A stretch of DNA of 64,000 nucleotides, taken from positions 1,070,003-1,134,002 of the forward strand of contig OZ242191.1 in assembly GCA_965205915.1 (NCBI GenBank), written 5' to 3'. The notes below the pieces were generated by a model. It did not search any database. It saw only the letters and a list, made by a program, of their open reading frames with translations, and had not been told where the DNA came from. Below are positions 21,652-41,179 of the stretch, piece by piece (the first letter of the stretch is position 1; each line of letters begins with the position of its first letter). Position numbers and translations under genes: made by a program. Source of the stretch: Dehalococcoidia bacterium. Its GTDB lineage: Bacteria > Chloroflexota > Dehalococcoidia > UBA6926.

Positions 21652-21660
21652 CCCGCAACG

Positions 21661-26659: not shown

Positions 26660-27787
26660 TCACTCTGAATCGAGATACGGAAGAAGGTCGGCCGGTTCCA
26701 TAGCTCTGCGTTCTACCTCTACCCGTAACTCCAATTCGCACTCTATTGGCTTCGGTAAATTGTCACCGCGAAGCTCCCCTTGCAACACTACAGTGCAAGG
26801 CTCAGTAGATCCAACAAACAGCTCATTGTCCGTCCATGCATAGTCACTCGGGCGGACATTTCCGAAGTCGATTTCAATCTCCCAGCGGTCAGTGAGTTCC
26901 CTGACCTTAATGTCTATGTCATCGGGACTACTTGCGGCCAGCCCATGTATATTGCCGAAGGGTGTTCTTGATGGGGGATTACTATACCAGTCTTTGATGA
27001 TTAGCCCTTCAGTCTTGGTGGCGTGACCGACAAAGCGCACTTGTCGAGCTGGTACATCGCTTGTGTTTTCGAGTCGCAGGCCAACCGAATTGACGAGTGC
27101 CCTCTCGGCAGCGTACAAGATCACTTCCCGCGGATAATTGTTGTTGATTAGGGGGTCTATGCTCAAAAAGGAGCGGCGCTGTTGCGGGAATATGCTATCA
27201 GCGAGTCGCGGTTCAAGGATTTGTGACCGAACGGCGTGGGGCGATGGCAGGACTTCCCTTTTTCTGTTGTCGGCCCACTGGAGCGAGAGATCAGGTGTGA
27301 GTTCGGCGGCAACCTCGGCGCCCATTTTCGCTATCTCATCAGGGTTTGCAACTCTTGTTGAGCTGCCGCCTCTTATGAAGACGTTGTTCGCACCCAATTT
27401 GCCAAACTTTTGCTTTAGGTATGTGGGGCGATGCTGTTGCGGGATTTCAATGACCCCGATAGAGACGCCCTCTATCGGAACCGCGTAGTAGGAGAAATCA
27501 ACATGGCGCTGCGTCTTACCGTTGACGAACTGTTGAAGGTTAGAATCGTCCAAGTGATCCTGAACGCCGACCACCTCACTGCGCCCACCCTTGGCCTCCT
27601 TTACTCCAATAAGGATGTACGCCGTTGTTCGTCGCCATGAATTGGCGAAGGCCAGTATGTCCTTCAGTAGCTCGGCCTTCGCACCGATATCCGCATTAGC
27701 AAAGGGATACTGTTCTGACTTGAAATCTAGGGCCGTCCCCTCAGGTTCATGCAGCAGAGACTCCAGAAACGATAAATCAATAGGCAT
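26660..27787 (-). CDS. AlbA_2/Schlafen-like (PF04326) domain protein with an unknown C-terminal domain; candidate defense gene
   Basis: 375 aa in a low-GC stretch. N-terminal 'EGTALDFKSEQY...ILAFANSWRRTTAYILIGVKEAKGG..VVGV' matches the AlbA_2 signature. Confidence 0.6.
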   Translation of the reverse strand: MPIDLSFLESLLHEPEGTALDFKSEQYPFANADIGAKAELLKDILAFANSWRRTTAYILIGVKEAKGGRSEVVGVQDHLDDSNLQQFVNGKTQRHVDFSYYAVPIEGVSIGVIEIPQQHRPTYLKQKFGKLGANNVFIRGGSSTRVANPDEIAKMGAEVAAELTPDLSLQWADNRKREVLPSPHAVRSQILEPRLADSIFPQQRRSFLSIDPLINNNYPREVILYAAERALVNSVGLRLENTSDVPARQVRFVGHATKTEGLIIKDWYSNPPSRTPFGNIHGLAASSPDDIDIKVRELTDRWEIEIDFGNVRPSDYAWTDNELFVGSTEPCTVVLQGELRGDNLPKPIECELELRVEVERRAMEPADLLPYLDSE

Positions 27788-27804
27788 CTACCTGACCTCC
27801 CCCT

Positions 27805-28074
27805 TTACCGATCCTGTGCTTGAACCTGTTCGGCGACGTCATTACCCGCCGTCAATTCCAATATCGCGGCGATGCGGCGGGCGGTGTTGTAGAAGTGTTG
27901 GACTTCATCGAGGTTGAGGGGGCGGGTTAGGATTTTGTGCTCGCGGTAGGAGAGCCATTTCTTGAGGACTTGATAGCCGCCTAGTTTGTAGTTCCAGACG
28001 ATGTTCCTGCCATGGCTCCTCGGCCATTCCTTTGAGTTCGGCTGTCCCAAGCCACACGGTAATAGCATCATCAT
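27805..28074 (-). pseudogene. C-terminal remnant resembling type IIG RM / BREX PglX-class N6-adenine methyltransferases
   Basis: 'KLGGYQVLKKWLSYREHKILTRPLNLDEVQHFYNTARRIAAILEL' recalls the conserved C-terminal block of Eco57I/PglX-family enzymes. No methyltransferase body is present upstream. Confidence 0.4.
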
Positions 28075-28472
28075 CCCATGTGAACGTGCTGCACGACGAT
28101 GCCGAGGCCGGATGCTCTTGATAGACGGCCATCGGCGGTTATTAGGGGGAGGTCCCGAGCGCGGGCGGCAGCAACGTAAAAGGCGTCATAGGCGCTGATG
28201 TTTTGGTAGTGCTCCCAGGCCAACGGCGCAAGGATTCGATGAGATATGCGTTCAATGGGCCACAAGAGCAGAACGCCAATAATTAGCCGCGCTCTTGCCT
28301 CTTCCAGCCTGCCGCCCAGCACTTCTCCCCGAAGCGTTGACAAAACTTCCGCGTCGATCAACTCGGGCGCAACCAACGACGCGTTGTCGATTATGTCGGC
28401 CACCGTTAAGCCGACGGGCGTTTTCAGGAGATACTCGACCGCCACGGACGCATCAATGACATAGTCGGTCAC
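28071..28472 (-). CDS. vapC: PIN-domain toxin VapC
   Basis: GTG start 'VTDYVIDASVAVEYLL' with the first PIN Asp. The GTG overlaps the antitoxin stop (GTGA). Confidence 0.7.
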   Translation of the reverse strand: MTDYVIDASVAVEYLLKTPVGLTVADIIDNASLVAPELIDAEVLSTLRGEVLGGRLEEARARLIIGVLLLWPIERISHRILAPLAWEHYQNISAYDAFYVAAARARDLPLITADGRLSRASGLGIVVQHVHMG

Positions 28473-28717
28473 TGCGGTTTCGCGCCGAACAACTCTGCGT
28501 CGCGCTCGGCGCGCGCTTCCGCAATCAACGTTGCCGCGTCGACGCCCAGATCCGTCGTTGGGAGTTGAGCCCAACGCTCCTGCCACTCCCGGCGCTTCAG
28601 CTCGCGCTCGACGGCGGTGAGGACGATTGCGCTCATGCTGGAGTTGTTCTCCTGCGCAAGGCGGCGAAGGCGTTTGTGGAGGTCGTCCGGTATGTTTCTT
28701 ACTTGAAGATTAGGCAT
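28469..28717 (-). CDS. vapB: Ribbon-helix-helix (CopG/FitA-like) antitoxin VapB
   Basis: 'MPNLQVRNIPDDLHKRLRRLAQENNSSMSAIV' is an RHH fold signature. Coupled to vapC. Confidence 0.65.
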   Translation of the reverse strand: MPNLQVRNIPDDLHKRLRRLAQENNSSMSAIVLTAVERELKRREWQERWAQLPTTDLGVDAATLIAEARAERDAELFGAKPQ

Positions 28718-28812
28718 GTAGTGAAGATAGCATGAAGTCTTCATGAAGCCAAGATGATTGGTGCATGACGCGGGTTTGGCGGGGATGAGTGCGACGGCGC
28801 AATGGAGGCTTT

Positions 28813-28960
28813 GGATTCTTCGCTGCGCTCAGAATGACATGTTGAGGGGCGGGAACGGCATGCGGACTGAGTCAGGAGGACATGCCGATTGTGATGGGTT
28901 GGCGTTTTTAGGGTTGGTTGGGGAATGGAGGTTAAGATTCCCGCGTTCGCGGGAATGACG
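28813..28960. repeat. Composite REP element (family B ... conserved spacer ... family A)
   Basis: B at 28813..28839 and A at 28936..28960. The spacer 'GGTTGGCGTT..GGGTTGGTTGGGGAATGGAG' is shared with the composite at 52430..52533. Confidence 0.75.
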
Positions 28961-29125
28961 GAGTGGGGGCGGGAATGACGGTGGGGGCGGGGGAGCGCGG
29001 CGGCTTGCGGGGGGGCGGGCAAAAGGGGCAACATGGGCGGGCGGTGGGCCATCGTCGGCGATGGTCGTCGCGGGCGGGTTAGCTGCATGAGCGGCGGGAG
29101 AGCAAATTTAGTTTGGGGGGATTTC

Positions 29126-29890
29126 ATGGCTGATTACGAGGGCATGATTGCGGAGATCACGACGGTGAAGGGTCACAACGGCGATGCCATTTCGGCGTAT
29201 TTCGCTCGGCCGCTTGGGCCGGGGCCGTTTCCTGGGGTCGTTTTGATCCACCACGCGCCCGGGTGGGATGAGTGGTATCGGGAGGCGACGCGCAAGTTCG
29301 CGCATCACGGCTATTTGGCCATCTCGCCGAATCTGTATGAGCGCGAGGGTAGCGGCAGCGCGGATGACGTTGCTGCTGCGGTGAGGGCAGCCGGCGGTGT
29401 GGCGGATGAACAGGCCGTGGGCGACATCGTGGGATCGATGCAGTTCCTCCGGGCGCTGCCGCAGACGAACGGCAAGGTTGGGGTGTTCGGCACATGCTCA
29501 GGCGGACGACAGGCCTACCTGGCAGGATGCGCGGGCGGATTCAATCCGGATGCGCGGTTCGATGCCGTCGTGAACTGCTGGGGCGGACGCGTGGTGATGA
29601 CCGACGATGAGAAGTCGGAAAAGATGCCCGTCGCGCCAATCGATTACACGCCGAACCTGAGCGCGCCGATCCTCGGTCTGTTCGGCAACGACGACATGAA
29701 TCCGACGCCGGCGCACGTCAACGCGCTTGAAGAGGCGCTGAAGGAGCACGGGAAGGATTACGAGTTCCATCGCTATGACGGCGCGGGACATGGTTTCTTC
29801 TACCACGATCGGCCGAATTACCGCATCGAGCAGGCGCTGGACGGGTGGGAGAAGCTCTTCCACTTCTTCGAGCAGCATCTCTCTGCCTGA
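29126..29890 (+). CDS. Dienelactone hydrolase-family protein
   Basis: Start at MADYEG. 'GTCSGGRQA' nucleophile Cys-type DLH motif and 'YDGAGHGF'. Confidence 0.7.
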   Translation: MADYEGMIAEITTVKGHNGDAISAYFARPLGPGPFPGVVLIHHAPGWDEWYREATRKFAHHGYLAISPNLYEREGSGSADDVAAAVRAAGGVADEQAVGDIVGSMQFLRALPQTNGKVGVFGTCSGGRQAYLAGCAGGFNPDARFDAVVNCWGGRVVMTDDEKSEKMPVAPIDYTPNLSAPILGLFGNDDMNPTPAHVNALEEALKEHGKDYEFHRYDGAGHGFFYHDRPNYRIEQALDGWEKLFHFFEQHLSA

Positions 29891-29932
29891 GCCGGAACGC
29901 ACCCTATCGAAACGCAACAGGAGACAAACTTC

Positions 29933-30217
29933 ATGTGTACCTGGATTGTTCAGACGGCAAAGCTGAATGGGAGCGGGAAGGCCGCGGGCGGTTGGATACC
30001 CGTAACGAAGGCGAACGTGTGCTACGACCATCCCGCCCACGCGTTCATGGAGCACAGCCTCAACATCGACTTTGTAAATGAGAACGCGGGGCCGGACGCT
30101 CGGGTTGCCGTGGAGATCAGCGCGGAGTCGGCACAGGAGTTGGTGAACGCGATTCTCGCCGCGCTGGAAGAGGGTAGCAAGGAGCACGGGGATCTGTTGG
30201 CGGCTACGCACGCGTAG
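29933..30217 (+). CDS. Small hypothetical protein
   Basis: 94 aa ORF with protein-like composition and no recognised motif. Confidence 0.35.
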   Translation: MCTWIVQTAKLNGSGKAAGGWIPVTKANVCYDHPAHAFMEHSLNIDFVNENAGPDARVAVEISAESAQELVNAILAALEEGSKEHGDLLAATHA

Positions 30218-30347
30218 TTTTGCGCTTTCGCGGGAATCACGCGTGGGACAGCGCGAACGACGGGGGTTTTGGTGGGCGAATACGCTCCACGTGATTGGTC
30301 AGATTCGTATGATGTAGTTATGGACGACATCGAACGAGTCGGCGGAT

Positions 30348-30941
30348 TTGGTTGCGATCCCGGAAAGGATAAATGACATGGTAAACGGAAGCGGAGACGG
30401 TGGACGGCAGTTGCAGGTGGCCACGCTCGGCGGCGGGTGCTTCTGGTGCCTTGAGGCCGTGTATGAGCTGGTGAAGGGCGTCGAGAGTGTCGTGTCCGGC
30501 TATGCGGGCGGGCATGTGGCGAATCCAAGCTATGAGCAGGTCTGCATGGGAACGACCGGCCACGCGGAGGTGACGCAGGTCACGTTCGACCCGGAGGTCG
30601 TTTCCCTTGACCATGTGCTCGATATTTTCTTCACGATCCATGACCCAACGACGCTGAATCGGCAGGGGTATGACGTCGGCACGCAGTATCGTTCGATCAT
30701 CTTGTACCACGATGATGATCAGAAGGCGGAGGCCGAGGCGGCGATCAAGCGTGTTGTCGACGAGGGGTTGTATCGGGAGCCGATCGTGACGCAGGTGGAG
30801 CCTCTGGAGGTGTTTTATTCAGGGGAGGATTACCACCAGCAGTACTTCCGCAGCAATCCGGGCGCGTCGTATTGCCAGGTGATCATCGAGCCGAAGGTGG
30901 CGAAGTTCCGCGCGAAGTATCTGGCGGATTTGCGGGTATAG
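30348..30941 (+). CDS. msrA: Peptide methionine sulfoxide reductase A
   Basis: 'ATLGGGCFWCLEAVY' active-site signature. Confidence 0.9.
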   Translation: MVAIPERINDMVNGSGDGGRQLQVATLGGGCFWCLEAVYELVKGVESVVSGYAGGHVANPSYEQVCMGTTGHAEVTQVTFDPEVVSLDHVLDIFFTIHDPTTLNRQGYDVGTQYRSIILYHDDDQKAEAEAAIKRVVDEGLYREPIVTQVEPLEVFYSGEDYHQQYFRSNPGASYCQVIIEPKVAKFRAKYLADLRV

Positions 30942-30980
30942 GTGCGGCGAGGCGGAGTTGGGCCACGAAATTGAGGTGAA

Positions 30981-31005
30981 GATTCCCGCCTTCGCGGGAA
31001 TGACG
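30981..31005. repeat. REP family A copy, followed by a short tandem 'GGGTGACAGGCCCGATGGC' x2
   Basis: GATTCCCGCCTTCGCGGGAATGACG, then the half-repeat GGGAATGACGG, then a 19-bp tandem duplication at 31051..31088. Confidence 0.75.
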
Positions 31006-31113
31006 GGTGGGTGGCGGGAATGACGGTGCGGCCGGATTGACGGGTGACAGGCCCGATGGCGGGTGACAGGCCCGATGGCGGGTGTGACGGGACGCCGAGG
31101 CGGAGGAGAGGTA

Positions 31114-31506
31114 ATGAGCACGACGGATGATGGGCAGTATCGCGAGAAGTTGACGGACATTCAGTACCATGTGGCGCGGGAGAAGGGTACGGAGCCGCCG
31201 TTCACGGGACTCTATTGGAATGAGCATGAGCCCGGCGTGTATCGGTGCATCTGCTGCGATACGCCTCTGTTCAGTTCCGAGACGAAGTACGACTCCGGCA
31301 CGGGATGGCCGAGCTTTTACCAGCCGCTGGAGGGCGCGGTCGTCAAGGAGGAGGAGGACCGAGCCCTCGGCATGGTTCGGACCGAGGTGATGTGCGGGAA
31401 CTGTGACGCGCACCTGGGACACATCTTCCCGGACGGGCCTGCGCCGACCGGCTTGCGCTATTGCCTGAACTCCGCGTCACTACGGCTTGATACGGAATCC
31501 GACTAG
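31114..31506 (+). CDS. msrB: Peptide methionine sulfoxide reductase B
   Basis: Start MSTTDDGQY. 'CGNCDAHLGHIFPDGP' and the 'CICCDTPLF' zinc-site Cys pairs. Confidence 0.9.
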   Translation: MSTTDDGQYREKLTDIQYHVAREKGTEPPFTGLYWNEHEPGVYRCICCDTPLFSSETKYDSGTGWPSFYQPLEGAVVKEEEDRALGMVRTEVMCGNCDAHLGHIFPDGPAPTGLRYCLNSASLRLDTESD

Positions 31507-31568
31507 CGCCTGGCAGTAGGCGATATACTAAACGCGGCAGATCCAGCCGAAGGGTGGTCAGCGAGAAC

Positions 31569-31853
31569 ATGGCGGCAAGTTTGAAGGTTCCTACAGCGAT
31601 GCGGCGCATCACGGATGGCGTCGATCGTATAGACGTGCCATCCGGGCCGCTGACGGATGCGCTTGAGGTGTTGGAAGCTCGCTTTCCGGGCATCAAGGCA
31701 CGTGTGTTGGACGACGTGACGGGGGATATTCACCCGTTCATCTCCATCTTCCTGAACGACAACGATATCCAGTACCTGCGCGGGCTTGAGACTATGGTCA
31801 AGGACGGCGATGAGATCGTCATCGTGCCGGCTATCGCGGGCGGGGCGTCATGA
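31569..31853 (+). CDS. MoaD/ThiS-family ubiquitin-like sulfur-carrier-like protein ending GG-AS
   Basis: '...MVKDGDEIVIVPAIAGGAS*' is a beta-grasp C-terminal signature, with two extra residues after the Gly-Gly. An alternative GTG start lies at 31554. Confidence 0.6.
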   Translation: MAASLKVPTAMRRITDGVDRIDVPSGPLTDALEVLEARFPGIKARVLDDVTGDIHPFISIFLNDNDIQYLRGLETMVKDGDEIVIVPAIAGGAS

Positions 31854-31978
31854 TCTACCGGCGTCGTCGCGGCTCTGATATGACGCAGACGCTGATGTGG
31901 GTCGGCGTTGTGCTGGTGGTGCTGGTGCTGATCATCGCGGCGTTCGAGAAGGGCGACGGACAAGCCTTCGGCGAATAG
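31850..31978 (+). CDS. 42-aa small hydrophobic peptide (below the ORF-track cutoff), ATGA-coupled to the MoaD-like gene
   Basis: MIYRRRRGSDMTQTLMWVGVVLVVLVLIIAAFEKGDGQAFGE*. The start codon overlaps the upstream stop. Confidence 0.3.
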   Translation: MIYRRRRGSDMTQTLMWVGVVLVVLVLIIAAFEKGDGQAFGE

Positions 31979-32532
31979 CTTTTTTTGAAGTTCGCGCCTA
32001 GCCTCTGCTTTTGAAGAGGTCGGTTTGCCGCGTTCCGGCCTCGGTAGCCCCTTCCGCGTAGCTAGTGCTTGATAAAGCAACAGGCCCGGACTTTTTCAAG
32101 GTCCGAGCCTGTCGTGCGATCGCATCGTTTCTTCGGGCGGTTTGTTTGGGCGCTCCTGCTAATCCACCCGCTTCACCACTTTGACGGCCGTCTTTTGGTG
32201 TCGCGCGGCAGCGCATAAAGTGGGCGCCACTTGCCGCCCTGTTTGCCCCGCTATGTCGGGGTGGCTGATCTGATGCCGCTCAGCGGCTCAGCCGATCCTC
32301 TCGACAGCGAGGCTTGCGTAAGGGAACTTCCGTGTGACGTACTCCGCGTAGATACGCATCATGTCGTCTTTCCCTCCTTCATGCCGGCTCCCGAGGGGCC
32401 GGGTCTTTGGGGCCGTAGCCCCTTCAATCGGAACTTTACCCATGAGGGCATACGGTGTCAACATTGTGCGTTTGTTCACTAATGGAGGGACTCACCCTGA
32501 CCCTCTCCCCGTCGTCGCTGCCGAGCCGGCCG

Positions 32533-33753
32533 TCAACCCTGAGACGGCGACGGCTCGCAGTAGGGCAGATTGAGGGCAGAGAGGTCGTTGATGGCCACGC
32601 CCCGGAGCGCCAGCGGGATGCAGCCGGTGAAGTTGTTGCCCGAAAGGGACAGGGTATTTAGCATGGCGAGATTGCCCACTGCGGGGAGTATTGTGCCCGT
32701 CAGGCTGTTGTCTGAGAGCCGGAATTCCTGAAGATTTGACCACTGTGCGAGCCCCCTCAACATCTCCCCGGTCAAGGCGTTGTGGCTTAGATCCAGGTGC
32801 GTCAGAGCGGAGAGGTACCGCAGCTGGATGGACATAAATCCCATCAGGCGTCGATTGGGCAACAGGAGCCTTGTAATTCGCTGTGGGGTCCCCTCCATCG
32901 TCACCCCTTCCCAACTTGTAATAGGGGTGTCCAGACTCCAGTTGAGGACCTCCGCGCCCCCAAGGTAGTCTTTCACGGTGAGCAGGTATATGCAGTCACG
33001 CATGAGGCCGGGATTGTCGGCCTCATGCGGTATTGCGCGGGCGCACGGCGCTTCGATGATGTTGGGTTCGCCGTAGCCGGAGTACGTGTACTCCACAACG
33101 CGAATTTCAGTATTAGACGAGCCGTCGTATCCCGGTGGAAAAAACGTTCTGCGGCCCCGAATTGGCCACCCTGCGGAATCGGCCCAGTACTCGACCCGCG
33201 TGGCTCCCTCTTGTTCAGACAGGAATCTTTCGGACACATAGTGCGGCTCATCAGATGAGCCGGAGGCTGCTTCTTCGACGCTGCTCGGGTCCAGACATAT
33301 CGGTCGGGTGAACAACTGACGAACGTTGGTATGAACACCCCATTCGCCGTAGACCTCGGGTTTGCCCGGCGCGCTTTCCCGGGAGTAATACGTGTCGTCC
33401 TTAAATATGTGTTCGTCCTTGCCCAATAGGACGCCTTCGGGGTCGCTAAACGTCGTCAGGAAGTGCTCGTCGCTCCCCGAGTATCGAAACTCTGCTTTCA
33501 ATCCCGTGAATAGCGCCGCTCCTGTCACCATGGCGTCAAACGGTGTGTATATCAGATTGCAGGCCACTCCCGCAATTGCCGGGGCAGAGGTTGGCGTGGG
33601 CGTGGATACCGCGGTAGGCGTAGGGTCAGTGACTGGCCTGAGTGTCGGCGTGGGGCTAGAAGGCGGCACAGGTTCGGGCGCAGCTGTGCCGCAGCCGGTG
33701 AGCAGGAGAAGCGCTGCAAGTAGGACGAGGATTGGTGGCGCGTGCCTGAGCAT
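32533..33753 (-). CDS. Lipoprotein with an unknown N-terminal domain and a C-terminal plant-type LRR module with an LRRNT-like cap
   Basis: Lipobox 'LLLTGC'. 'DNPGLMRDCIYLLTVKDYLGGAEVLNWSLDTPITSWEGVTMEG' then 4 LRRs, ending '...LNLPYCEPSP'. Confidence 0.75.
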   Translation of the reverse strand: MLRHAPPILVLLAALLLLTGCGTAAPEPVPPSSPTPTLRPVTDPTPTAVSTPTPTSAPAIAGVACNLIYTPFDAMVTGAALFTGLKAEFRYSGSDEHFLTTFSDPEGVLLGKDEHIFKDDTYYSRESAPGKPEVYGEWGVHTNVRQLFTRPICLDPSSVEEAASGSSDEPHYVSERFLSEQEGATRVEYWADSAGWPIRGRRTFFPPGYDGSSNTEIRVVEYTYSGYGEPNIIEAPCARAIPHEADNPGLMRDCIYLLTVKDYLGGAEVLNWSLDTPITSWEGVTMEGTPQRITRLLLPNRRLMGFMSIQLRYLSALTHLDLSHNALTGEMLRGLAQWSNLQEFRLSDNSLTGTILPAVGNLAMLNTLSLSGNNFTGCIPLALRGVAINDLSALNLPYCEPSPSQG

Positions 33754-33816
33754 CTTCGTTTCATTGTAACGCGACGGGAGCTCGCCTCAAAGCCATCAAC
33801 CCTGCGACGGCGGCGG

Positions 33817-35136
33817 CTAGCAATAGGGCAGGTTCAGCGATGCCAGGTCGTTTGTGGGCACGTTCTCCAGGGCGATGGGGATGCAACCGGTGAGGGAGTT
33901 CCTCGCCAGGCGAATCTCATCCAGGCCTGATAGCTGTCCCACTTCCGGCGGAATGTTCCCCGTGAGGCTCTTGTTTGTCAGCACCAGCTTTGTTACCCGA
34001 ATCGGCGTTCCCTCGACGGTTACGCCGTTCCAGTTAGCGATGGATTTGTCCAGGCCCCAGTTCAGCGTGGCGGTTCCCCGGAGTGTGTCCTTGGCCGCCA
34101 GGAGCGCAAAGCAGTCGGTCATGAGGCCGGGATTGTCGAGCTGGTTGGATACGATGAGTCCACATGGCGGCGGTGGTTGCACAGGCGGGCCGTCAGAGTG
34201 GTTGTAGGCGCCGGTATCTCTGTAGAACTGACTCAGTTGATTGGCGTCAGTGATCAGCAAGGGCAGGTCTTCATCGGCGCCGATTCGCCCGCTGTATTCG
34301 GTGACGCGCTCCTGGTGGGCCTCCGTCACTGCCCGTCTAAAGGCGGGGAGTTCCATCCCCAGTTGGGAGCGGTAAGTCCTATAGTCGTCGGAATAAGCTC
34401 TCCACAAGTCTCTAAGAGGATGAACGGCGATCACAGAGCCGTCCTCCTGCCGCTCTACATCCCAAGTAATGAACTCCTCCCACGTCTCTACCGCGTTGAA
34501 GAGCTCCCATGCCTCGGCCGAGGCGTCATACCACGGGCCGATGAACAAGATAACCTCAGCGCCTTCAATCCCGCCCGGCGCAATACCGGCGGCGGAACTG
34601 AAGTATCCACCTTCAACGAACCTCCGTTCGTTATAGATTCGCGATCCCCGCGCGTGCTCTTGCCTTTCCTCTTCACTTATTTCTGCAGGAGAATACGAAT
34701 AGGAACTCTCATCCACCAGGACTGTAAGAATAGGCGGTCCAGAGCCGAGGACGTCGGAATTCACACGCACGCCCACGTAACACCTGGTCGCAGTAGCGTG
34801 TATCCATTCAGACTCATCGTTCGTGTTGTCGTCTGGAGGCCAGCGAAATCGGGCGTCTGAAACGTTGCACCGAACCGTGCCGGGGAGGTAAGTGCCGCGC
34901 AGTACAATAGAGTTGACCCAGGCCGTGCTAGGGGAAAAGGGCTCAAGGAAAGACCGCATCGGCAGGAAGTTGGGAGTAAGGACTCCGTCGGCCAGCCAGT
35001 ACACGTCAGGCTCGCAGGGATCCAAGGCAGAGCCTTCCACCGGCGTGCAGGGGGGGTATTTCTTCCTCAAGGTATCCGGAGTACGGCGAAGTGGACTGTC
35101 CGTCATCACACGCCGCGAGCAGTAGAATCGCTGCAA
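33817..35136 (-). CDS. Paralogous LRR lipoprotein; the signal peptide lies in a different frame (35086..35172) across a C7 tract
   Basis: The body 'DNPGLMTDCFALLAAKDTLRGTATLNWGLDKSIANWNGVTVEG' plus LRRs is in one frame. The signal peptide 'MSRYAPPILALIAAILLLAACDDGQ' is in another frame. A G7/C7 run at 35050..35056 lies between them. Confidence 0.65.
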   Translation of the reverse strand: MQRFYCSRRVMTDSPLRRTPDTLRKKYPPCTPVEGSALDPCEPDVYWLADGVLTPNFLPMRSFLEPFSPSTAWVNSIVLRGTYLPGTVRCNVSDARFRWPPDDNTNDESEWIHATATRCYVGVRVNSDVLGSGPPILTVLVDESSYSYSPAEISEEERQEHARGSRIYNERRFVEGGYFSSAAGIAPGGIEGAEVILFIGPWYDASAEAWELFNAVETWEEFITWDVERQEDGSVIAVHPLRDLWRAYSDDYRTYRSQLGMELPAFRRAVTEAHQERVTEYSGRIGADEDLPLLITDANQLSQFYRDTGAYNHSDGPPVQPPPPCGLIVSNQLDNPGLMTDCFALLAAKDTLRGTATLNWGLDKSIANWNGVTVEGTPIRVTKLVLTNKSLTGNIPPEVGQLSGLDEIRLARNSLTGCIPIALENVPTNDLASLNLPYC

Positions 35137-35510
35137 TCAGGGCGAGGATTGGTGGAGCGTATCTGGACATCAACGTTTTCCACTGCGAGCAGTGATCCAA
35201 TCCCCCTCAGCAGCTCACGGGTTCGATGTCCCGGCTATGCCCACGACGTTGGTAGCCAAACACCATCAGTATACGGATGCCAAAAGTGGGAACAAGCGCT
35301 ATGCGTGTGCCACGTCGGGAGCGGCCACGCTCTCTTCCCCGCAGTACGAGGTCCCGAGGTGGTCGAGTTCTCGGGCCGCGCCTTCGGGGCAGCGGATCGG
35401 CCTCATCGGCGGAGGGAGAGGGTGCAGATTCTTCGCATCGCTCAGAATGACAGGGGATTGCGGGGTATGCTGGTTAGACGATTTGGCCCTGTATCTATCT
35501 CAAATACATA

Positions 35511-36566
35511 ATGGCGCTTGCTTACACACTCGGACTTCGCGCGCTCAGCCTTGTGGGCGTGTTGTTTATCGTCCTTTTGCTGGTCGTCGTGACGCTTGGC
35601 GCGACGGGGTTTTCTGACCGCATGTTGACGGCCATCGTGTCCGAGGAGATGCGGGGAACGCGGCAGGGGCTGGCTGAGACAATCAAGGATCCGGAGAGGC
35701 TCGAGGAGACGCTGCGGGAGCGGCGGGTAGAGCTCGAGGAGTTCTATGGGCTGGATCGCTCCTGGTACACGCGGCTCCCGGGGATGGTTGGGCGCGTTCT
35801 GACGCTTGATCTTGGGTCGGCGCGCAACTTACGGAGCTTTGACGGATCGTCTCGTGTGACGGACATCGTGCTGGAGCGGGTGCCGTACTCGATCATGCTG
35901 GTGACGACGTCGTTGATCATTACGGCGATCATCGGCTTATGGCTGGGAGCAAAGCTGGCGACGCGTGTGGGGACGCGGGGGGATCGGCTCGCGTCGTATT
36001 TGGCTGCGGCGTCGAATGCGCTGCCGGCGTGGTGGGCGGGCATCCTGCTCATTCTCGTGCTGTCGTTCCAGCTGCGAATCTTTCCATCCGGCGGGCTATA
36101 CAGTTCGCCGCCGCCGGATGGGGGGCTGCTGCGGTTCATGGACCTTTTGTGGCACGCGGCGCTGCCGATATTGACGCTTGTGCTGGTCTCCGTGGGCGCG
36201 TGGACGTACGTGGTGCGGACGATGTTGCTGAATACGGCGCAGGAGTTCCATGTGACGGCGGCGCGGGCGCGAGGGATACCGGAAGGACAGGTGATGCGGC
36301 GGCACATACTGCGCGTCGCCGCGCCGCCGATCGCGACGAATATCATCCTCGCGCTGACGGGTTCCATCGGCGGGGCGATCCTGACGGAGACGGTGTTCAA
36401 CTGGCCGGGGATGGGGCGGCTGTATTTCGACGCGATCACGACGGCGGATGAGGCCGTCATCGTGGCGCTGACGTTCCTCTTCACGTTGATGTACGTGACG
36501 GCGCGGTTTGTGCTGGAGGTGCTGTACGTGGTGCTTGATCCGCGCGTGAGGTACACGTCGCAATGA
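35511..36566 (+). CDS. oppB: Peptide/nickel ABC transporter permease (OppB/DppB type)
   Basis: 351 aa, 6 TM helices. Conserved 'EAA'-like loop. Confidence 0.8.
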   Translation: MALAYTLGLRALSLVGVLFIVLLLVVVTLGATGFSDRMLTAIVSEEMRGTRQGLAETIKDPERLEETLRERRVELEEFYGLDRSWYTRLPGMVGRVLTLDLGSARNLRSFDGSSRVTDIVLERVPYSIMLVTTSLIITAIIGLWLGAKLATRVGTRGDRLASYLAAASNALPAWWAGILLILVLSFQLRIFPSGGLYSSPPPDGGLLRFMDLLWHAALPILTLVLVSVGAWTYVVRTMLLNTAQEFHVTAARARGIPEGQVMRRHILRVAAPPIATNIILALTGSIGGAILTETVFNWPGMGRLYFDAITTADEAVIVALTFLFTLMYVTARFVLEVLYVVLDPRVRYTSQ

Positions 36567-37996
36567 GGCCGGGGGAGGCGCTCCGCGTCGTACTGAGGTC
36601 AGGCTCCGGTCGCGTGGGCCTGGCGATGCTGGCCATGTTGGTTTTTATTTCCGTGATGGTGCCGTTCTTCTATCCGCTGGATTTCGGTCTGCGGTTCTGG
36701 AATAACCCGATCGCATGGGCGGACAACCCAAAGGCGGTGCCGCCCGCGTGGACGAATCTCGCCGGTAATCAAGCGCCACGCCATCGCGTATTTGACGCCG
36801 AGACGCCCGCGCAAGAGATCGTGACCGGCCCGGCGACCACACGATTGTATTCGTTCACGTTCGACCACGAAGCGGAAGCGCCGCCGACATTCCTTTCCGT
36901 GTCCATCGGGAAAGTGACGTTCTATGAGCGGCCACCGGTGATTTCGATGACGTTATCGCGGCCTGACGGGCGCTCGGCTACGATATTGCAGGAGGTCGTT
37001 CGCGGGGCAAGACCCGACGAGACGCCGCCGGTGACGCGATTCGCGAATGAGCCGCGCCGCATCTATCTGTCCGGAGACACCAATGCCCTCACCACAGCCT
37101 CCGAGTTTTTGCAGCGGGAGTTTGGGTTGCACCTGAGCGCGGCGGAGATGCAGGGGAATCTGGAGGCGGCGCTGTTCGGGACGCCGACGGGGGACGGGGG
37201 CACGAATTTCGCGCCGCTGACGGGGGAGTACACGGCAACGATTCGGGTTATTACCTACGACGCGCGGGACTCGGTGGAGAACGTGCGCTTCGTGGCGGCG
37301 GGCGGTGTGTTCGGGCTGATGGGAACGGATACGCAGGGGCGCAATCTTGCGACGGGGCTGCTGTTCGGCTTTCCGGTCGCGCTGTTGATTGGGGTGCTGA
37401 CGAGCGTAGCGGCCACGATCCTGGGTACGTTCTTTGGGATATTGAGCGGGTTTTCAGGCGGCAAGACGGACACGGTGATACAGCGGCTGGCCGACGTGAT
37501 GACGAATATCCCGCTGCTGCCGATATTGATCTTCCTGATATTCGTGTTGGGGCAGAAGTTGTGGCTGGTGATGACGATCCTCGTGATATTCGGGTGGCCG
37601 GGGCTAACGATTATTTTGCGGTCCATGGTGTTGCAGGTGCGGTCGGGGCAGCTGGTGGAGGCGACGCAGGCGCTGGGGGCGTCACGGTGGCGGATCATGT
37701 TCCGGCACGTATTTTTCCAGATGGCGCCGTTCATCGTGGCACAGATGATTTTCTTCACGCCGGCGGCGATTCTCGCGGAGGCGGGGCTGAGCTTCCTTGG
37801 GCTTGGTGATCCATCGCTGCCGACATGGGGACAGATTCTTGAGCAGGGGTTCCGGACGGGCGCGATCTTCATCGGCTATTGGTGGTGGATACTGCCGCCC
37901 GGCATTCTCATCGTGATTACCGCCATGACTTTTGTGCTCATTGCCCTCGCGATGGAGCCGGTGCTGAATCCGCGCTTGCGGGAGACGGCGACATGA
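36563..37996 (+). CDS. oppC: Peptide ABC transporter permease (OppC/DppC type) with a long N-terminal extracytoplasmic extension
   Basis: 477 aa. ATGA overlap with oppB. The C-terminal half is the permease core. Confidence 0.8.
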   Translation: MRPGEALRVVLRSGSGRVGLAMLAMLVFISVMVPFFYPLDFGLRFWNNPIAWADNPKAVPPAWTNLAGNQAPRHRVFDAETPAQEIVTGPATTRLYSFTFDHEAEAPPTFLSVSIGKVTFYERPPVISMTLSRPDGRSATILQEVVRGARPDETPPVTRFANEPRRIYLSGDTNALTTASEFLQREFGLHLSAAEMQGNLEAALFGTPTGDGGTNFAPLTGEYTATIRVITYDARDSVENVRFVAAGGVFGLMGTDTQGRNLATGLLFGFPVALLIGVLTSVAATILGTFFGILSGFSGGKTDTVIQRLADVMTNIPLLPILIFLIFVLGQKLWLVMTILVIFGWPGLTIILRSMVLQVRSGQLVEATQALGASRWRIMFRHVFFQMAPFIVAQMIFFTPAAILAEAGLSFLGLGDPSLPTWGQILEQGFRTGAIFIGYWWWILPPGILIVITAMTFVLIALAMEPVLNPRLRETAT

Positions 37997-38985
37997 GCAC
38001 TCGGCCAACGAGCAGTGGGCCTGTCCTGACGGTGCGCGATCTGCGGCTATCCTACGCGGCGGATCGTGGCGACGTTCATGCAGTGGACGGTGTGTCGTTC
38101 GACCTGGAGGCCGGTAAGACACTGGCCATCGTCGGCGAGTCGGGTTCCGGCAAGACGAGCCTCGCCCTTGCCCTGCTGCGTCTGCTACCGCGCAACGTGT
38201 CGCGGTTTGAGGGGCAGATCACGCTGAACGGGGCTGACTGCATGGCGCTGAGTGACGGGGAGTTTCGGGAAAGGGTGCGGTGGCGTCAGATTTCGATGGT
38301 GTTCCAGGGGGCAACGGAGTCTCTGAATCCTATCTACAAGGTTGGGCATCAGATTCGAGAGGTGTTCACGTCGCGCGGGGGGCAGTCGCGCCGCGAGGCG
38401 GACGAGCGGACGCGCGAGCTGTTGGAGCTTGTGCGGCTGCCACCGGAGACGTTCAATCGCTATCCGCATGAGCTGAGCGGGGGAATGAAACAGCGGATCG
38501 CGGTGGCGTCGGCGCTGGCGCTCGATCCGGCGCTGATTCTGCTGGATGAGCCGACGTCAGCGCTGGACGTCGGCGTACAGGCGCAGATCATGAACCTGTT
38601 CAAGCGGCTCAAGTCGAATCTGGGCATCTCTTCGATTTTCATCAGCCACGACATCGCGTTGGCGAGCGATCTGGCAGACGACATTGCGGTGATGTACGCG
38701 GGGCGGCTGGTGGAGATTGGGCCGTCGGAGGAGGTGTTGGGTTCGCCATCGCATCCGTACACGCAGAAGCTGTTGGCGGCGATTCCGCGCCTGCGGTCGG
38801 ATGATCCGTTGGAGTTCATCCCGGGCGCGCCGCCGGATTTGTCCGATCCGCCGCCGGGTTGCCGGTTCCATCCGCGTTGCCAATTCGCGATGGATCGGTG
38901 TCGCGTTGAGGACCCGCGCGGTTTTGTGACGGCGGGCGGGCAATCTCTTGCGGCGTGCTGGCTGCTGGATGAGGCCACTCAATGA
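37993..38985 (+). CDS. oppD: Peptide ABC transporter ATP-binding protein (OppD type)
   Basis: Walker A 'GESGSGKTS', signature 'LSGGMKQR'. C-terminal oligopeptide-ABC Cys motif 'GCRFHPRCQFAMDRC'. Confidence 0.85.
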   Translation: MSTRPTSSGPVLTVRDLRLSYAADRGDVHAVDGVSFDLEAGKTLAIVGESGSGKTSLALALLRLLPRNVSRFEGQITLNGADCMALSDGEFRERVRWRQISMVFQGATESLNPIYKVGHQIREVFTSRGGQSRREADERTRELLELVRLPPETFNRYPHELSGGMKQRIAVASALALDPALILLDEPTSALDVGVQAQIMNLFKRLKSNLGISSIFISHDIALASDLADDIAVMYAGRLVEIGPSEEVLGSPSHPYTQKLLAAIPRLRSDDPLEFIPGAPPDLSDPPPGCRFHPRCQFAMDRCRVEDPRGFVTAGGQSLAACWLLDEATQ

Positions 38986-40031
38986 CGTTCACGACAACGC
39001 GTTCTACGAATGCCGCATCCGGCGCGGTCCCAATGCTGGAGTTGCGCGACGTTGCGATGCACTTCAAGTCACGCGGGCGCGGGTTCCGCACGACGACGGT
39101 TCGGGCGCTGGACGGGGTGACGCTCTCACTGGATCGGGAAGAGACGATCGCGGTCGTGGGTGAGTCGGGGTCGGGCAAGACGACGCTGGGGCGTGTGTCG
39201 TTGCGGCTGTTGGAGCCGACGGCGGGCAGAGTGATCTTCGATGGTGAGGACATCACTGAGATACAGGAGAAGCGGCTCAAGGGCTTTCGACGGCGGGCGC
39301 AGGGGATATTCCAGGACCCGTTCACGAGTCTCGATCCGTACATGACGATTCGGCAGATCGTGGAGGAGCCGCTGGTTATCCATGGGGCGGGGTCGGGATC
39401 GGAGCGGCTGGAACGCGTGGTGTGGGCGCTGGAAGAGGTGCGGATGCGGCCGGCAAGCGACTTCCTGAACCAATTTCCACATCTGCTGTCGGGCGGACAG
39501 CGGCAGCGGGTGGGCATCGCGCGGGCGTTGGTGCTGACGCCGGACTATATGTTGGCGGATGAGCCGGTCTCGATGATTGACGCTTCGAGCCGGGCCGAGA
39601 TTCTGTTGCTGTTGCGGGAGCTACAAGAGCGGCATCACATCGGCTATCTGTACATCACGCACGACATCGCGACGGCGCGGCACTTTGCACCGACGGCTGC
39701 GGTCATGTATTTGGGGCGCATAGTCGAACACGGGCCGACGGTGGATTTGATCAACAATCCGCTGCATCCGTATACGCAGGGGCTATTGAACGCGGTGCCG
39801 GAGCCTGATCCGGCGAATCGGCTCGCGGAGCGAATCGTGCTGCCCGGAGAGGCTCCAAGTCCGGCGAACGTGCCGAGCGGGTGCCGCTTCCATCCTCGCT
39901 GCCCGGCGTTCATGGCAGGGCTGTGCGACGTTGTGCCGCCACCGCTGGTGGAGATAGAGCCGGGGCGTACGGTGGAGTGCCATTTGTACGGGGAAGAGGG
40001 GAAGGAGCGGGCGGAACAGCGAGCAATATGA
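38982..40031 (+). CDS. oppF: Peptide ABC transporter ATP-binding protein (OppF type)
   Basis: Walker A 'GESGSGKTT', 'LSGGQRQR', 'GCRFHPRCPAFMAGLC'. Confidence 0.85.
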   Translation: MTFTTTRSTNAASGAVPMLELRDVAMHFKSRGRGFRTTTVRALDGVTLSLDREETIAVVGESGSGKTTLGRVSLRLLEPTAGRVIFDGEDITEIQEKRLKGFRRRAQGIFQDPFTSLDPYMTIRQIVEEPLVIHGAGSGSERLERVVWALEEVRMRPASDFLNQFPHLLSGGQRQRVGIARALVLTPDYMLADEPVSMIDASSRAEILLLLRELQERHHIGYLYITHDIATARHFAPTAAVMYLGRIVEHGPTVDLINNPLHPYTQGLLNAVPEPDPANRLAERIVLPGEAPSPANVPSGCRFHPRCPAFMAGLCDVVPPPLVEIEPGRTVECHLYGEEGKERAEQRAI

Positions 40032-40106
40032 CCACAATGAATCAAATTACTGAAGAGGACTGTCAGCGGGAGTTGACTTAGACTAGCAGCGGACTATAGT
40101 AGAGAT

Positions 40107-40160
40107 TGTAGTGGGGTCGGGCGAGGATCCTGAAAAACGGAGCCTTGTCCCGACCCCGTC
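40107..40160 (+). terminator. Putative intrinsic terminator after the opp operon
   Basis: Imperfect inverted repeat GGGGTCGGGCGAGG...CCTTGTCCCGACCCC, followed by a T/C-rich run. Confidence 0.35.
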
Positions 40161-40196
40161 CTCTCTTAAACCCGCCCTCCTGGCCCGTTGCGTCAC

Positions 40197-40862
40197 TTAG
40201 TCACCCGTAATGTCGAGGGCGCGGACGAACCTGAATAAACCATGCTTGGTTCCACTTGGTTCTTCGGTTCCATGGGCGTTCGCGATGTGATGGACCACTT
40301 GCAAGGCTTCCACGTAAAGAGAGGAGGCGAGGGTGACGTTGACCGGGGTGGGTATTCTCAGGTTTCGATCGAGGTATTCCTCAAGTTCTGCTTTCTGAGC
40401 GCGGGACATTTCGATGCGGTCGAGCACCAGATCGTACCTCTCGGAGATGAGGGGATTTGCAGCAAAGTGCCACTCAAGTAGACGGCGGAGAGCAAAGTTC
40501 CAGAAGCGACGCGCGTCCTGGCCACGCGGGCTGTCCGGGCGAAGATAAGGGCCACTGAACGTTTCTTTGTCCAAGTAGACTGCTGAAGCTGAAATGGCTT
40601 CACCGCCCTCTGCTAACGTCTGAATGGGATCCATGAGACGGTCAAACTCCGGTTTCCCAACCGGGATTTTCAGCTCCCGCGATAGACGGCGCAAGTAACG
40701 GAATGCTGCCATATGCCGGACAATGCCTTGATAGGAGTCATCCGTCACGTGCAGAGCGGCCATAGCGAAGGAGGGGCTGCTAAGGAGCGCGCCCGTCTGT
40801 GGATGCACTGCGTAGCCAGGATCGCCAGATTCGTCAACAAAGATGTAATCGTATTTGGCCAT
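40197..40862 (-). CDS. DUF3800-family protein (defense-island associated)
   Basis: The N-terminal 'YDYIFVDESGDPG' is the DUF3800 signature. Lower-GC stretch adjacent to the tRNA cluster. Confidence 0.65.
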   Translation of the reverse strand: MAKYDYIFVDESGDPGYAVHPQTGALLSSPSFAMAALHVTDDSYQGIVRHMAAFRYLRRLSRELKIPVGKPEFDRLMDPIQTLAEGGEAISASAVYLDKETFSGPYLRPDSPRGQDARRFWNFALRRLLEWHFAANPLISERYDLVLDRIEMSRAQKAELEEYLDRNLRIPTPVNVTLASSLYVEALQVVHHIANAHGTEEPSGTKHGLFRFVRALDITGD

Positions 40863-41020
40863 AAGATGCAGATACTCAGTCAGGTAGCCCGCCCACTAAA
40901 ATGCTATGATAGCACGCGTGTTCCTTTCTGTGCTCAAAACACGCACGGCCTCTTGGGAAATCGCTTTTGGCCGTTTGACGCTCTGCGGCGTGCTCGGCAT
41001 AATTGCGTGGCGCGGGTGTT

Positions 41021-41097: not shown

Positions 41098-41179
41098 GCG
41101 CTCCCAACGTGAGAGCCGTTAGGCTGTCATCGTGTTGTCAGAGGGCGAGGCCCGCGGAAGATACCGCGCCGGGTCAAAT

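What the first reader, a model, noticed from the sequence alone, without database searches (positions are those of the whole stretch)
32533..35172. Second LRR lipoprotein pair with a plant-receptor-like N-cap; one copy is split at a C7 homopolymer between the signal peptide and the body
Both proteins have an unknown ~250-aa N-terminal domain. This is followed by 'DNPGLM(R/T)DC(I/F)xLLxxKDxLxGxxxLNWxLDxxIxxWxGVTxEG', which mirrors the plant LRRNT_2 cap pattern (ALLxFKxxL...L.sW......C.W.GV.C). Each then has four LRRs and ends 'LNLPYC'.

In the 33817 gene, the lipoprotein signal peptide 'MSRYAPPILALIAAILLLAACDDGQ' (35086..35172) is in a different reading frame from the body. The only low-complexity element between them is a G7/C7 run at 35050..35056. 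Gain or loss of one C would fuse the frames. This is either a phase-variable ON/OFF switch for a surface protein, an inactivating mutation, or a homopolymer sequencing error.
Basis: partly seen in the sequence, partly recalled or inferred. Interest (0 to 1): 0.6.

Follow-up and report, generated by a model that had tools for sequence, protein, structure and literature searches.

The report
Frameshifted LRR lipoprotein in symbiont genome
Two neighbouring genes for surface lipoproteins with plant-like leucine-rich repeats sit in a strain-variable spot of a SAR202-type (probably sponge-associated) bacterial genome. One is broken by a single extra C that every close relative lacks, so this is most likely an ordinary loss-of-function allele or an assembly slip rather than a purpose-built switch.

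Summary
Gene A (32533..33753, -) is an intact 406-aa lipoprotein. Gene B (33817..35170, -) has its lipoprotein signal peptide in one frame and its body in another. The only homopolymer of 5 nt or more in the gene, C7 (G7 at 35050..35056), lies between them. Only loss of one C (or gain of two) fuses the frames; gain of one does not.

Four orthologous loci have C6 and are in frame at this site. Five further protein-level orthologues read ...EEIPPCTP... in frame with the signal peptide. The frameshifted product is identical to a deposited protein on a 2.45-Mb contig.

The tract is not conserved in DNA among 60 paralogues, and other family members are broken at unrelated positions. I therefore favour a recent strain-specific null allele (about 0.5) over assembly error (about 0.3) or evolved phase variation (about 0.12).

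A and B share only the signal peptide and the C-terminal cap-plus-LRR module. Their N-domains are unrelated, and each defines a large uncharacterised family whose taxonomically labelled members are almost all Dehalococcoidia/SAR202.

The plant-like cap is partly supported. LRRNT_2 is the only Pfam hit to the cap but falls below threshold. Plant receptor ectodomains are the top sequence and structure matches.

The pair occupies a slot that is empty, or holds other secreted-protein genes, in sibling strains. This is a new member of the known class of "eukaryote-like proteins" of sponge symbionts.

The parts
32533..33753 (-). Gene A: intact 406-aa lipoprotein. Order of parts: signal peptide with lipobox, Pro/Thr linker, A-type N-domain, cap, 4 LRRs plus a terminal half-repeat, tail EPSPSQG.
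   Evidence: ORF. Pfam LRR_1 at 40.3 bits against a cutoff of 20.6. About 70 near-full-length homologues. Sub-ranges translated.
33691..33753 (-). Gene A signal peptide MLRHAPPILVLLAALLLLTGC, with lipobox L-T-G-C.
   Evidence: The 62 nt including this region are 81% identical to the corresponding part of gene B (D1).
33049..33573 (-). A-type N-terminal domain (about 175 aa). No Pfam or PDB sequence match. Unrelated to B's N-domain.
32881..33048 (-). Gene A N-cap: PC-x16-C ... LL..KD.L.G...LNW......W.GVT.EG.
   Evidence: No LRRNT_2 hit.
32557..32880 (-). Gene A LRR module: four plant-specific-type LRRs plus a C-cap strand, with Cys pair GC-x20-C (…LNLPYC).
   Evidence: Plant-specific consensus taken from PMC2946307.
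33763..33790 (-). Promoter-like site (TTGAGG-16-TACAAT) in the 63-nt B-A spacer. If functional, A would not depend on B's transcript.
   Evidence: This is a consensus match only.
35108..35170 (-). Gene B signal peptide MSRYAPPILALIAAILLLAAC, with lipobox L-A-A-C. In this window it is in a frame that stops at 35006.
35050..35056 (-). C7 run on the sense strand (G7 on +). It encodes the Pro-Pro of the conserved EEIPPCTP motif. One C more than in all compared orthologues. This is the frameshift site.
33817..35049 (-). Gene B body (residues 41-450 of the repaired protein): N-domain, cap, 2 LRRs plus a terminal half-repeat, then TAG.
34165..35049 (-). B-type N-terminal domain (about 295 aa; conserved Cys 41, 52, 101, 130). 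It is a large uncharacterised family. A high-confidence AlphaFold2 model has only NTR/TIMP-like OB-fold similarity for part of it.
34000..34164 (-). Gene B N-cap: C-x16-C ... LLAAKDTLRGTATLNWGLDKSIANWNGVTVEG.
   Evidence: (LRRNT_2 E 0.099, 13.4 bits).
33820..33999 (-). Gene B LRR module: two plant-specific-type LRRs plus a C-cap strand, GC-x20-C.
32490..35452 (.). Strain-variable slot between the ThiS/small-ORF side and the peptide ABC permease. It holds B+A here. In sibling contigs it is empty, or holds B only, A only, another LRR gene, or a trypsin-like protease gene.

Best explanation
SHOWN
- A and B are two accessory lipoprotein genes of a Dehalococcoidia (SAR202-type) bacterium.
- Each product has a lipobox signal peptide and a family-specific N-terminal domain (unrelated between A and B).
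- Each also has a shared C-terminal module. It consists of a Cx16C cap whose second half resembles the plant LRRNT_2 cap, then 2 (B) or 4 (A) plant-specific-type 24-residue LRRs, then a Cx20C C-cap ending LNLPYC.
- The pair sits in a slot whose content differs between sibling strains.

INFERRED
- The proteins are lipid-anchored on the cell surface and present a small LRR binding surface, as proposed for the eukaryote-like proteins of sponge symbionts.

The frameshift
- In this genome, B carries one extra C in the C6 tract that encodes the Pro-Pro of the conserved EEIPPCTP motif. The signal peptide is therefore uncoupled from the body.
- The best the cell could make is a 64-aa secreted stub, plus a 429-439-aa product that has no signal peptide and so would not be exported.
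- I commit to this being a real, recent, strain-specific slippage mutation: a null allele of a dispensable, fast-turnover gene (an incipient pseudogene).
- It may be reversible in principle because it lies in a homopolymer, but it is not an evolved ON/OFF device.
For: 1. The C7 and the frame arrangement are in the sequence, and only -1C restores a 450-aa lipoprotein.
2. Orthologues L001 (97% aa), L004, L071 and L074 (26x, 2.42-Mb contig) all have C6. P0373-P0376 and P0379 are in frame across the motif.
3. The truncated product is 100% identical to P0371, held by NCBI and ENA on a 2,448,894-bp contig, so the C7 is in the deposited assembly.
4. Assembly quality looks good locally. There is no window-specific indel in 4.6 kb of flank against 7 sibling contigs. 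All 27 comparisons of other G6/G7 runs with sibling contigs give equal lengths. The overlapping-ORF candidates I checked (9393-12845) are separate genes, not frameshifts.
5. The family decays often. Five of 10 members of the 90% cluster are truncated or broken. The B orthologue in L071 has several frameshifts next to an intact A. L027, L042, L054, L063 and L069 are frameshifted, some at non-repeat sites.
6. The gene is dispensable. The slot is empty or holds other genes in strains with an identical permease.
7. dN/dS is 0.25-0.36 for B, against 0-0.09 for the neighbouring permeases. Constraint is weak but present, so the lesion is recent.
8. Family and taxon: 608 and 283 homologues respectively. 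Of 62 genome loci, 61 are titled Dehalococcoidia, SAR202 or Chloroflexi/Chloroflexota, and one weak LRR-only match is in a Gemmatimonadetes MAG. One LRR homologue is annotated under the sponge Geodia barretti.
9. LRR nature.
Against: - No reads are available, so a consensus error at the only long homopolymer of the gene cannot be excluded.
- It is the single lesion in an otherwise constrained gene, which is exactly what an error would look like.
- Sibling low-coverage contigs of the same assembly series do carry indel errors (L001, L004, L008).
- A paralogue in another MAG (L027) has C5 at the same tract. That fits a hypermutable or error-prone site as well as it fits decay.
- Surface anchoring, the disulfides and host binding are all inferred, not tested.
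Confidence: 0.5

Rival explanations
1. Assembly or sequencing artefact. The true genome has C6 and gene B is intact. The extra C is a homopolymer-length miscall in the long-read consensus.
For: - It is a single lesion at the only homopolymer of 5 nt or more in the gene.
- Nine orthologues are in frame at this site.
- dN/dS of 0.25 indicates a constrained gene.
- Related contigs with names such as ctgN_12x_l carry frame-breaking single-base indels in otherwise conserved permease genes at 6-12x coverage.
Against: - Those errors are not at long homopolymers.
- 27 of 27 other G6/G7 runs agree in length across sibling contigs, including 2-8x ones.
- The window shows no unique indel in 4.6 kb of shared flank, and the overlapping-ORF candidates I checked (9393-12845) are separate genes, not frameshifts.
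- It comes from a 2.45-Mb contig. Contigs of that size in the series are 14-26x.
Confidence: 0.3
2. Evolved phase-variable (contingency) switch. Slipped-strand changes of the poly-C tract just after the signal peptide toggle display of the B lipoprotein ON (C6) and OFF (C5/C7) within the symbiont population.
For: - The tract sits in the 5' coding region of a surface-protein gene in a bacterium that is probably host-associated.
- Three length states are seen at the homologous site: C5 in L027, C6 in most, C7 here.
- Two of about 7 frameshift events found in the family map to this tract.
- The genome is rich in G runs, and its G9 tract at 41567 differs between strains.
Against: - The tract is short (6-7 nt).
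- It is not maintained in DNA. Among 60 paralogues the longest run at the site is 4 nt or less in 30, 5 in 14, 6 in 15 and 7 (in frame) in 1, through synonymous Pro codons.
- Nine of 10 close orthologues are in frame at the tract (the four with DNA have C6).
- Other broken family members have lesions elsewhere, some multiple, which is decay rather than switching.
- No within-sample length heterogeneity could be examined.
Confidence: 0.12
3. The frameshift is real but is bypassed during expression. Either a +1 ribosomal slip of tRNA-Pro on CCC-C, or RNA-polymerase slippage on the C7 run, yields some full-length lipoprotein.
For: The body lies in the +1 frame relative to the signal peptide, directly after CCC CCC C. 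From general knowledge, CCC-C is a +1-slippage-prone motif, and homopolymer slippage rescues frameshifted genes in some endosymbionts.
Against: - No stimulatory element was looked for or seen.
- All relatives encode the protein in a single frame with C6, so no conserved recoding site exists.
- Any rescue would be a low-level leak.
Confidence: 0.05

Closest known systems
Eukaryote-like proteins (ELPs: LRR, ankyrin, TPR, fibronectin-III, cadherin) of sponge symbionts, including sponge-associated Chloroflexi/SAR202 (PMC6306507)
   Same: - A eukaryote-type repeat module in secreted proteins of Dehalococcoidia/SAR202 MAGs.
- Many family members add FN3 and cadherin domains.
- One homologue is annotated under the sponge Geodia barretti.
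- Several paralogous loci per genome.
   Different: The specific architecture has not been described in anything I could search: lipobox, then one of two uncharacterised N-domains, then a Cx16C cap, then 2-4 plant-specific LRRs. The host origin of this particular window is inferred, not shown.
Plant LRR receptor ectodomains with the LRRNT_2 cap (GSO1, FLS2, MIK2, SERKs, PGIP)
   Same: - 24-residue LxxLxLxxNxLtGxIPxxLGxLxx repeats.
- They are the top PDB sequence hits (E down to 2.5e-56 for A and 7.6e-143 for the family profile).
- The alignment runs in register through ...W....W.GVT... at the plant N-termini.
   Different: - Only 2-4 repeats.
- No transmembrane helix or kinase.
- Lipoprotein anchor instead.
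- The plant Cys pair C.W.GV.C is missing and is replaced by an upstream Cx16C.
- Pfam LRRNT_2 is below threshold.
- A cap-only profile finds no PDB sequence.
Homopolymer-tract phase-variable surface genes (contingency loci of Neisseria, Campylobacter, Helicobacter, Haemophilus; from general knowledge)
   Same: A poly-C/G tract in the 5' coding region of a surface-protein gene. A one-base change switches the reading frame.
   Different: - The tract is only 6-7 nt.
- It is not conserved among paralogues at the DNA level.
- Orthologues are almost uniformly C6.
- No evidence of reversible switching.
NTR/TIMP-like OB-fold modules (agrin NtA, TIMP N-domain, complement C345C, PCOLCE NTR)
   Different: - No sequence-level match (Pfam, NCBIfam, PDB sequences).
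- Identity is 6-16%.
- The mature protein starts with a lipidated Cys far upstream, so a TIMP-type free N-terminal Cys mechanism is not possible.
- This is fold-level resemblance only.

Membership tests
Bacterial lipoproteins (SPase II substrates) | N-terminal signal peptide ending in a lipobox [LVI][ASTVI][GAS]C | tested here: met
   A has ...LLLL-T-G-C21 and B has ...LLL-A-A-C21. The Cys is at least 90% conserved in the 28-sequence family alignment. In B the lipobox is out of frame with the body.
Bacterial lipoproteins (SPase II substrates) | Lipidation and cleavage by Lgt/LspA | not testable with these tools
   No proteomic data. The genome outside the window is not available.
LRR proteins, plant-specific (PS) class | Tandem 23-25-residue repeats matching LxxLxLxxNxL(t/s)GxIPxxLGxLxx | tested here: met
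   [not shown]
Pfam LRRNT_2 (PF08263) N-terminal cap | Score at or above the gathering threshold (20.7 bits) | tested here: not met
   No hit for either whole protein at E<=10. Isolated B cap: 13.4 bits, E 0.099. Family-consensus cap: 14.9 bits, E 0.033. A cap: no hit.
Pfam LRRNT_2 (PF08263) N-terminal cap | Conserved Cys pair in C-x-W-x-G-V-x-C | tested here: not met
   The family has W-x-G-V-T with no flanking Cys. The conserved Cys pair is Cx16C, upstream of the helix.
Pfam LRRNT_2 (PF08263) N-terminal cap | Helix plus W..GV strand capping the first LRR, in register with plant caps | tested here: met
   At least 10 plant ectodomains align their residues ~24-54 onward to A residues 251-281 onward. 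GSO1 residues 36-126 align to family-profile positions 364-452. The model has a helix at 347-364 followed by a strand at 383-386.
Phase-variable contingency locus | Simple-sequence tract placed so that length change switches expression | tested here: met
   The C7 lies between the signal peptide and the body, and -1 restores the frame.
Phase-variable contingency locus | Tract maintained and over-long relative to coding need | tested here: not met
   30 of 60 paralogues encode the same Pro-Pro with runs of 4 nt or less. Only 15 have C6 and 1 has C7.
Phase-variable contingency locus | Length heterogeneity within a population or among reads; reversible switching | not testable with these tools
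   No reads. Among assembled orthologues: 4 with C6 DNA, 5 more in frame at the protein level, 1 with C7.
Sponge-symbiont eukaryote-like proteins | Eukaryote-type repeat domain in a secreted protein of a sponge-associated bacterium | tested here: inconclusive
   The domain type and signal peptide are met. Of the 62 genome loci, 61 are from Dehalococcoidia/SAR202/Chloroflexi MAGs and one weak LRR-only match is from a Gemmatimonadetes MAG. One homologue is labelled Geodia barretti. The sample of origin of the window is not given. The sponge origin of several named MAGs is from my memory only.
NTR/TIMP module | OB-fold with N-terminal Cys-rich segment; sequence membership in PF01759/PF00965 | tested here: not met
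   [not shown]

The most novel reading that the evidence does not exclude
The slot and the tract together could form a surface-variation system in an uncultured sponge symbiont. In this reading, alternative secreted-protein cassettes are swapped at a recombination-prone site. The cassettes are two LRR lipoprotein types that share signal-peptide and LRR ends, plus proteases. The site is G-rich, and its empty allele is a 47-nt G-rich minisatellite. Individual LRR lipoproteins would be toggled ON/OFF by slippage at the Pro-Pro poly-C tract just after the signal peptide. Co-resident strains would thereby present different LRR surfaces to host recognition.
Probability: 0.1. Interest if true: 0.6.

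Novelty: new member of a known kind. Interest (0 to 1): 0.3.

Why it matters
The broken gene itself is a routine annotation issue. It is either a pseudogene or a consensus error that hides a lipoprotein.

The context is more useful:
- It documents two large, unnamed N-terminal domain families fused to a minimal plant-type LRR module in SAR202 Dehalococcoidia. The B-type domain alone has 509 representative clusters.
- It shows that these genes occupy a presence/absence hotspot among co-occurring strains.
- They evolve several-fold to tens-of-fold faster than their neighbours in dN/dS (0.25-0.6 against 0-0.09), and many copies are broken.

That pattern fits a role at the host or environment interface. 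It also gives concrete candidates for binding studies in sponge-symbiont biology.

Tried and rejected
1. Looked for the window's own contig and identical strains by exact protein look-up. Gene A, ThiS (99-aa ORF), truncated B and P0371 were not on record. The permease look-up did work and gave the sibling contigs.
2. Two exact-pattern scans of JGI metagenome contigs around the tract gave 0 hits.
3. A cap-only profile against PDB sequences gave 0 hits.
4. The first AlphaFold2 run with 28 sequences was too poor (pLDDT 59). It was redone with 121 sequences (pLDDT 85.9).
5. The afdb50 fold library was unavailable.
6. Suspected further frameshifts at G7 10686 (ORFs 9393..10685 and 10348..11214) and at 12846. 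Pfam shows separate genes (HhH-GPD and DUF1643; Ham1 and a TM protein), so these were rejected.
7. Considered that B's TAG after LNLPYC was a second lesion. Rejected, because intact orthologues share it.
8. Looked for flanking direct or inverted repeats or mobile-element genes around the slot. None was convincing; the only notable repeat is the similarity between the signal-peptide regions of A and B.
9. The G-rich repeat unit of the empty allele is absent from the window.
Full report
**1. What is in the sequence**

Two ORFs lie head to tail on the minus strand.

- Gene A is 32533..33753 (406 aa, ATG start).
- Gene B has a body ORF listed as 33817..35136.
- A 64-aa ORF at 35006..35200 contains the ATG at 35170 and reads MSRYAPPILALIAAILLLAAC DDGQSTSPYSGYLEEEIPPLHAGG...*.

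The run G7 (C7 on the coding strand) is at 35050..35056.

- Deleting one C gives a continuous 450-aa protein.
- Adding two gives 451 aa.
- Adding one does not fuse the frames.
- C7 is the only homopolymer of 5 nt or more in gene B.
- The window as a whole has 41 runs of 6 nt or more and 12 of 7 nt or more, 10 of them G or C.
- The body ORF has no in-frame start that gives a hydrophobic leader.

**2. Is the frameshift ancestral? No**

A homology search with the repaired protein found 608 relatives that cover the whole length.

- The closest is P0001 (97% identical). It reads MSRYAPPILALIAAILLLAACDDGQSTSPYTGYLEEEIPPCTPVEGS... in one frame.
- Its locus L001 is syntenic with the window. The only indel inside the coding sequence of gene B between the two is the extra C: C6 in L001, C7 here.
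- C6 is also found in L004, L071 and L074. L074 is a 2.42-Mb contig at 26x.
- Five more members of the same 90% cluster are in frame across the motif at the protein level.
- The junction lies inside the conserved motif (Y)L.EEIPPCTPV.GS.VDPCEP.
- P0371 is a 429-aa protein held by NCBI and ENA on a 2,448,894-bp contig. It is 100% identical to the window's truncated product starting at the internal ATG 35106. The C7 is therefore part of the deposited assembly.

**3. Error, mutation or switch?**

*Assembly quality near the locus looks good.*

- Against seven sibling contigs that encode the identical permease, the window has no private indel in 4.6 kb.
- All 27 comparisons of other G6/G7 runs with those contigs give the same length, even for contigs at 2-8x.
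- The indel errors seen in low-coverage siblings (L001, L004, L008) are not at long homopolymers.
- Two other suspicious ORF overlaps in the window turned out to be separate genes.
- This argues moderately against a consensus error, but only reads can settle it.

*Against a dedicated switch.*

- Among 60 paralogous copies, the Pro-Pro of IPPC is encoded with a longest C run of 3 or less in 24, 4 in 6, 5 in 14, 6 in 15 and 7 (in frame) in 1. The tract is therefore not maintained.
- Family members are often broken elsewhere. L027 has a C5 at this same tract plus a second frameshift at a non-repeat site. L063 is broken at a non-repeat site. L042, L054 and L069 are broken near other runs.
- The B orthologue in L071 has several lesions next to an intact A.
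- Half of the 10 members of the P0001 cluster are truncated or frameshifted.

*Selection.* dN/dS of B against its orthologues is 0.25-0.36. For A it is 0.38-0.60, and for the adjacent permeases 0-0.09. Constraint is weak but present, which implies the lesion is recent.

*My ranking.*

| Reading | Confidence |
|---|---|
| Real recent null allele | about 0.5 |
| Assembly error | about 0.3 |
| Evolved phase variation | about 0.12 |
| Bypass by +1 slippage on CCC-C | about 0.05 |

**4. What the proteins are**

A and B align significantly only over the C-terminal ~115-165 residues (39% identity). The 21-aa signal peptides are 14/21 identical, but that BLASTP match is not significant on its own. The signal-peptide DNA is 81% identical over 62 nt. 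The N-domains are unrelated.

*B-type N-domain.*

- About 295 aa, with conserved Cys 41, 52, 101 and 130.
- No Pfam, NCBIfam or PDB sequence match.
- Used alone, it finds 509 representative clusters (173 at E<=1e-30). These are proteins of 125-1755 aa, and the domain is sometimes internal or repeated.

*A-type N-domain.* About 175 aa after a Pro/Thr linker, with about 70 near-full-length relatives.

*Taxon.*

- Of the 62 genome loci found with the B-family profile, 61 are in Dehalococcoidia/SAR202/Chloroflexi MAGs, several per genome. One weak match (E 3e-9, LRR region only) is in a Gemmatimonadetes MAG.
- One homologue of the LRR module is annotated as a Geodia barretti (sponge) protein, presumably symbiont DNA.
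- Many relatives add FN3 and cadherin domains.
- This matches the "eukaryote-like proteins" described for sponge symbionts, including SAR202 (PMC6306507).

**5. The cap and the LRRs**

*Repeats.* They fit the plant-specific class LxxLxLxxNxL(t/s)GxIPxxLGxLxx of 23-25 residues (PMC2946307). A has four plus a terminal half-repeat. B has two plus a terminal half-repeat.

*PDB sequence searches.*

- They return plant receptor ectodomains first: GSO1, FLS2, MIK2, HSL1, PEPR1, TDR, BRI1.
- The alignments start at the plant N-terminal caps and run through ...W....W.GVT... in register.

*Structure.*

- The 121-sequence AlphaFold2 model has pLDDT 85.9 and pTM 0.84.

*The cap tested on its own.*

- LRRNT_2 is the only Pfam match to the isolated cap, and it is below threshold. 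Scores are 13.4 and 14.9 bits against a cutoff of 20.7. A's cap gives none.
- A cap-only profile finds nothing in PDB sequences.
- The plant Cys pair is absent. The family instead has a Cx16C pair before the helix and a Cx20C pair at the C-cap.
- Verdict: plant-like in fold and register, but not a demonstrable LRRNT_2 member.

**6. Genomic context**

The conserved flanks end at about 32490 and restart at about 35452. Sibling contigs that encode a 100% identical permease carry different content between these points:

- nothing, apart from a 47-nt G-rich tandem repeat (x3.1);
- a trypsin-like protease gene;
- a B-type gene only;
- an A-type gene only;
- another LRR gene;
- B+A.

The pair is therefore accessory cargo of a strain-variable slot. 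A promoter-like site in the B-A spacer suggests that A need not depend on B's transcript, but this is a consensus match only.

**7. Verdict**

- The finding is real as a sequence feature.
- It is a new member of a known kind: LRR eukaryote-like lipoproteins of SAR202-type symbionts.
- The split is most simply a one-base slippage null allele or a consensus error.
- Nothing requires a new mechanism.
- The unnamed N-domain families and the variable slot are the parts worth follow-up.

Noticed in passing
window 1..64000 (whole window); also L001-L005: Strong strand asymmetry. GC skew is about +0.11 in seven of the eight 8-kb segments and about 0 in the last (56001..64000), whatever the gene orientation. 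G runs of 6 nt or more number 34 on the + strand against 1 C run. This is much more than the skew alone predicts. The same bias appears in orthologous contigs, so it is a property of the lineage and not of one assembly.
   Followed up: partly
window 16074..16082, 41567..41575, 61152..61160: Three G9 tracts, none inside a long ORF on the reading I made. The one at 41567 is G12CGGG in sibling contig L003, so it varies in length between strains.
   Followed up: partly
window 18636..20123, 20215..21651, 21968..23755 (all - strand): Three more lipoproteins with 11-16 plant-specific-type LRRs. They have a Pro/Thr linker and a different cap (…NWL.DAPLGEWYGVT…). Whole-protein Pfam scans give no LRRNT_2 hit.
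   Followed up: partly
L005 5774..5917 (also L006, L007): the 'empty' allele of the slot corresponding to window ~32490..35452: Where the LRR genes are absent, the slot holds a 47-nt G-rich tandem repeat (3.1 copies, 90% matches). It could form G-quadruplexes. It is absent from the window.
   Followed up: partly
L002 4057..5052, L003 3965..5695, L008 1425..2396: In other sibling strains the same slot carries a Trypsin_2-family protease gene of 323-576 aa instead of LRR lipoproteins.
   Followed up: no
[not shown]
   Followed up: partly
window ~26243..29081: L001's extreme end (about 270 nt) matches both window 28144..29081 and, at 85% identity, window 26243..26515. The sequence between those two matches contains a Schlafen/AlbA_2-domain gene (26660..27787). 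Whether it is absent from L001 cannot be told, because the locus ends there. Sibling contigs show a PIN/FitA-like toxin-antitoxin pair in this neighbourhood.
   Followed up: no
P0216 (homologue of the A/B LRR module): This 464-aa protein is 48% identical to A's LRR part. NCBI and UniRef annotate it as 'LRR receptor-like serine/threonine-protein kinase RCH1 [Geodia barretti]'. It is probably bacterial symbiont DNA annotated as a sponge gene.
   Followed up: no
L001 vs window 32697 and 33653..33713 (gene A orthologues): The A orthologues differ by in-frame indels of 12, 30 and 72 nt. The 72-nt one removes exactly one 24-residue LRR, so repeat number varies between strains.
   Followed up: no
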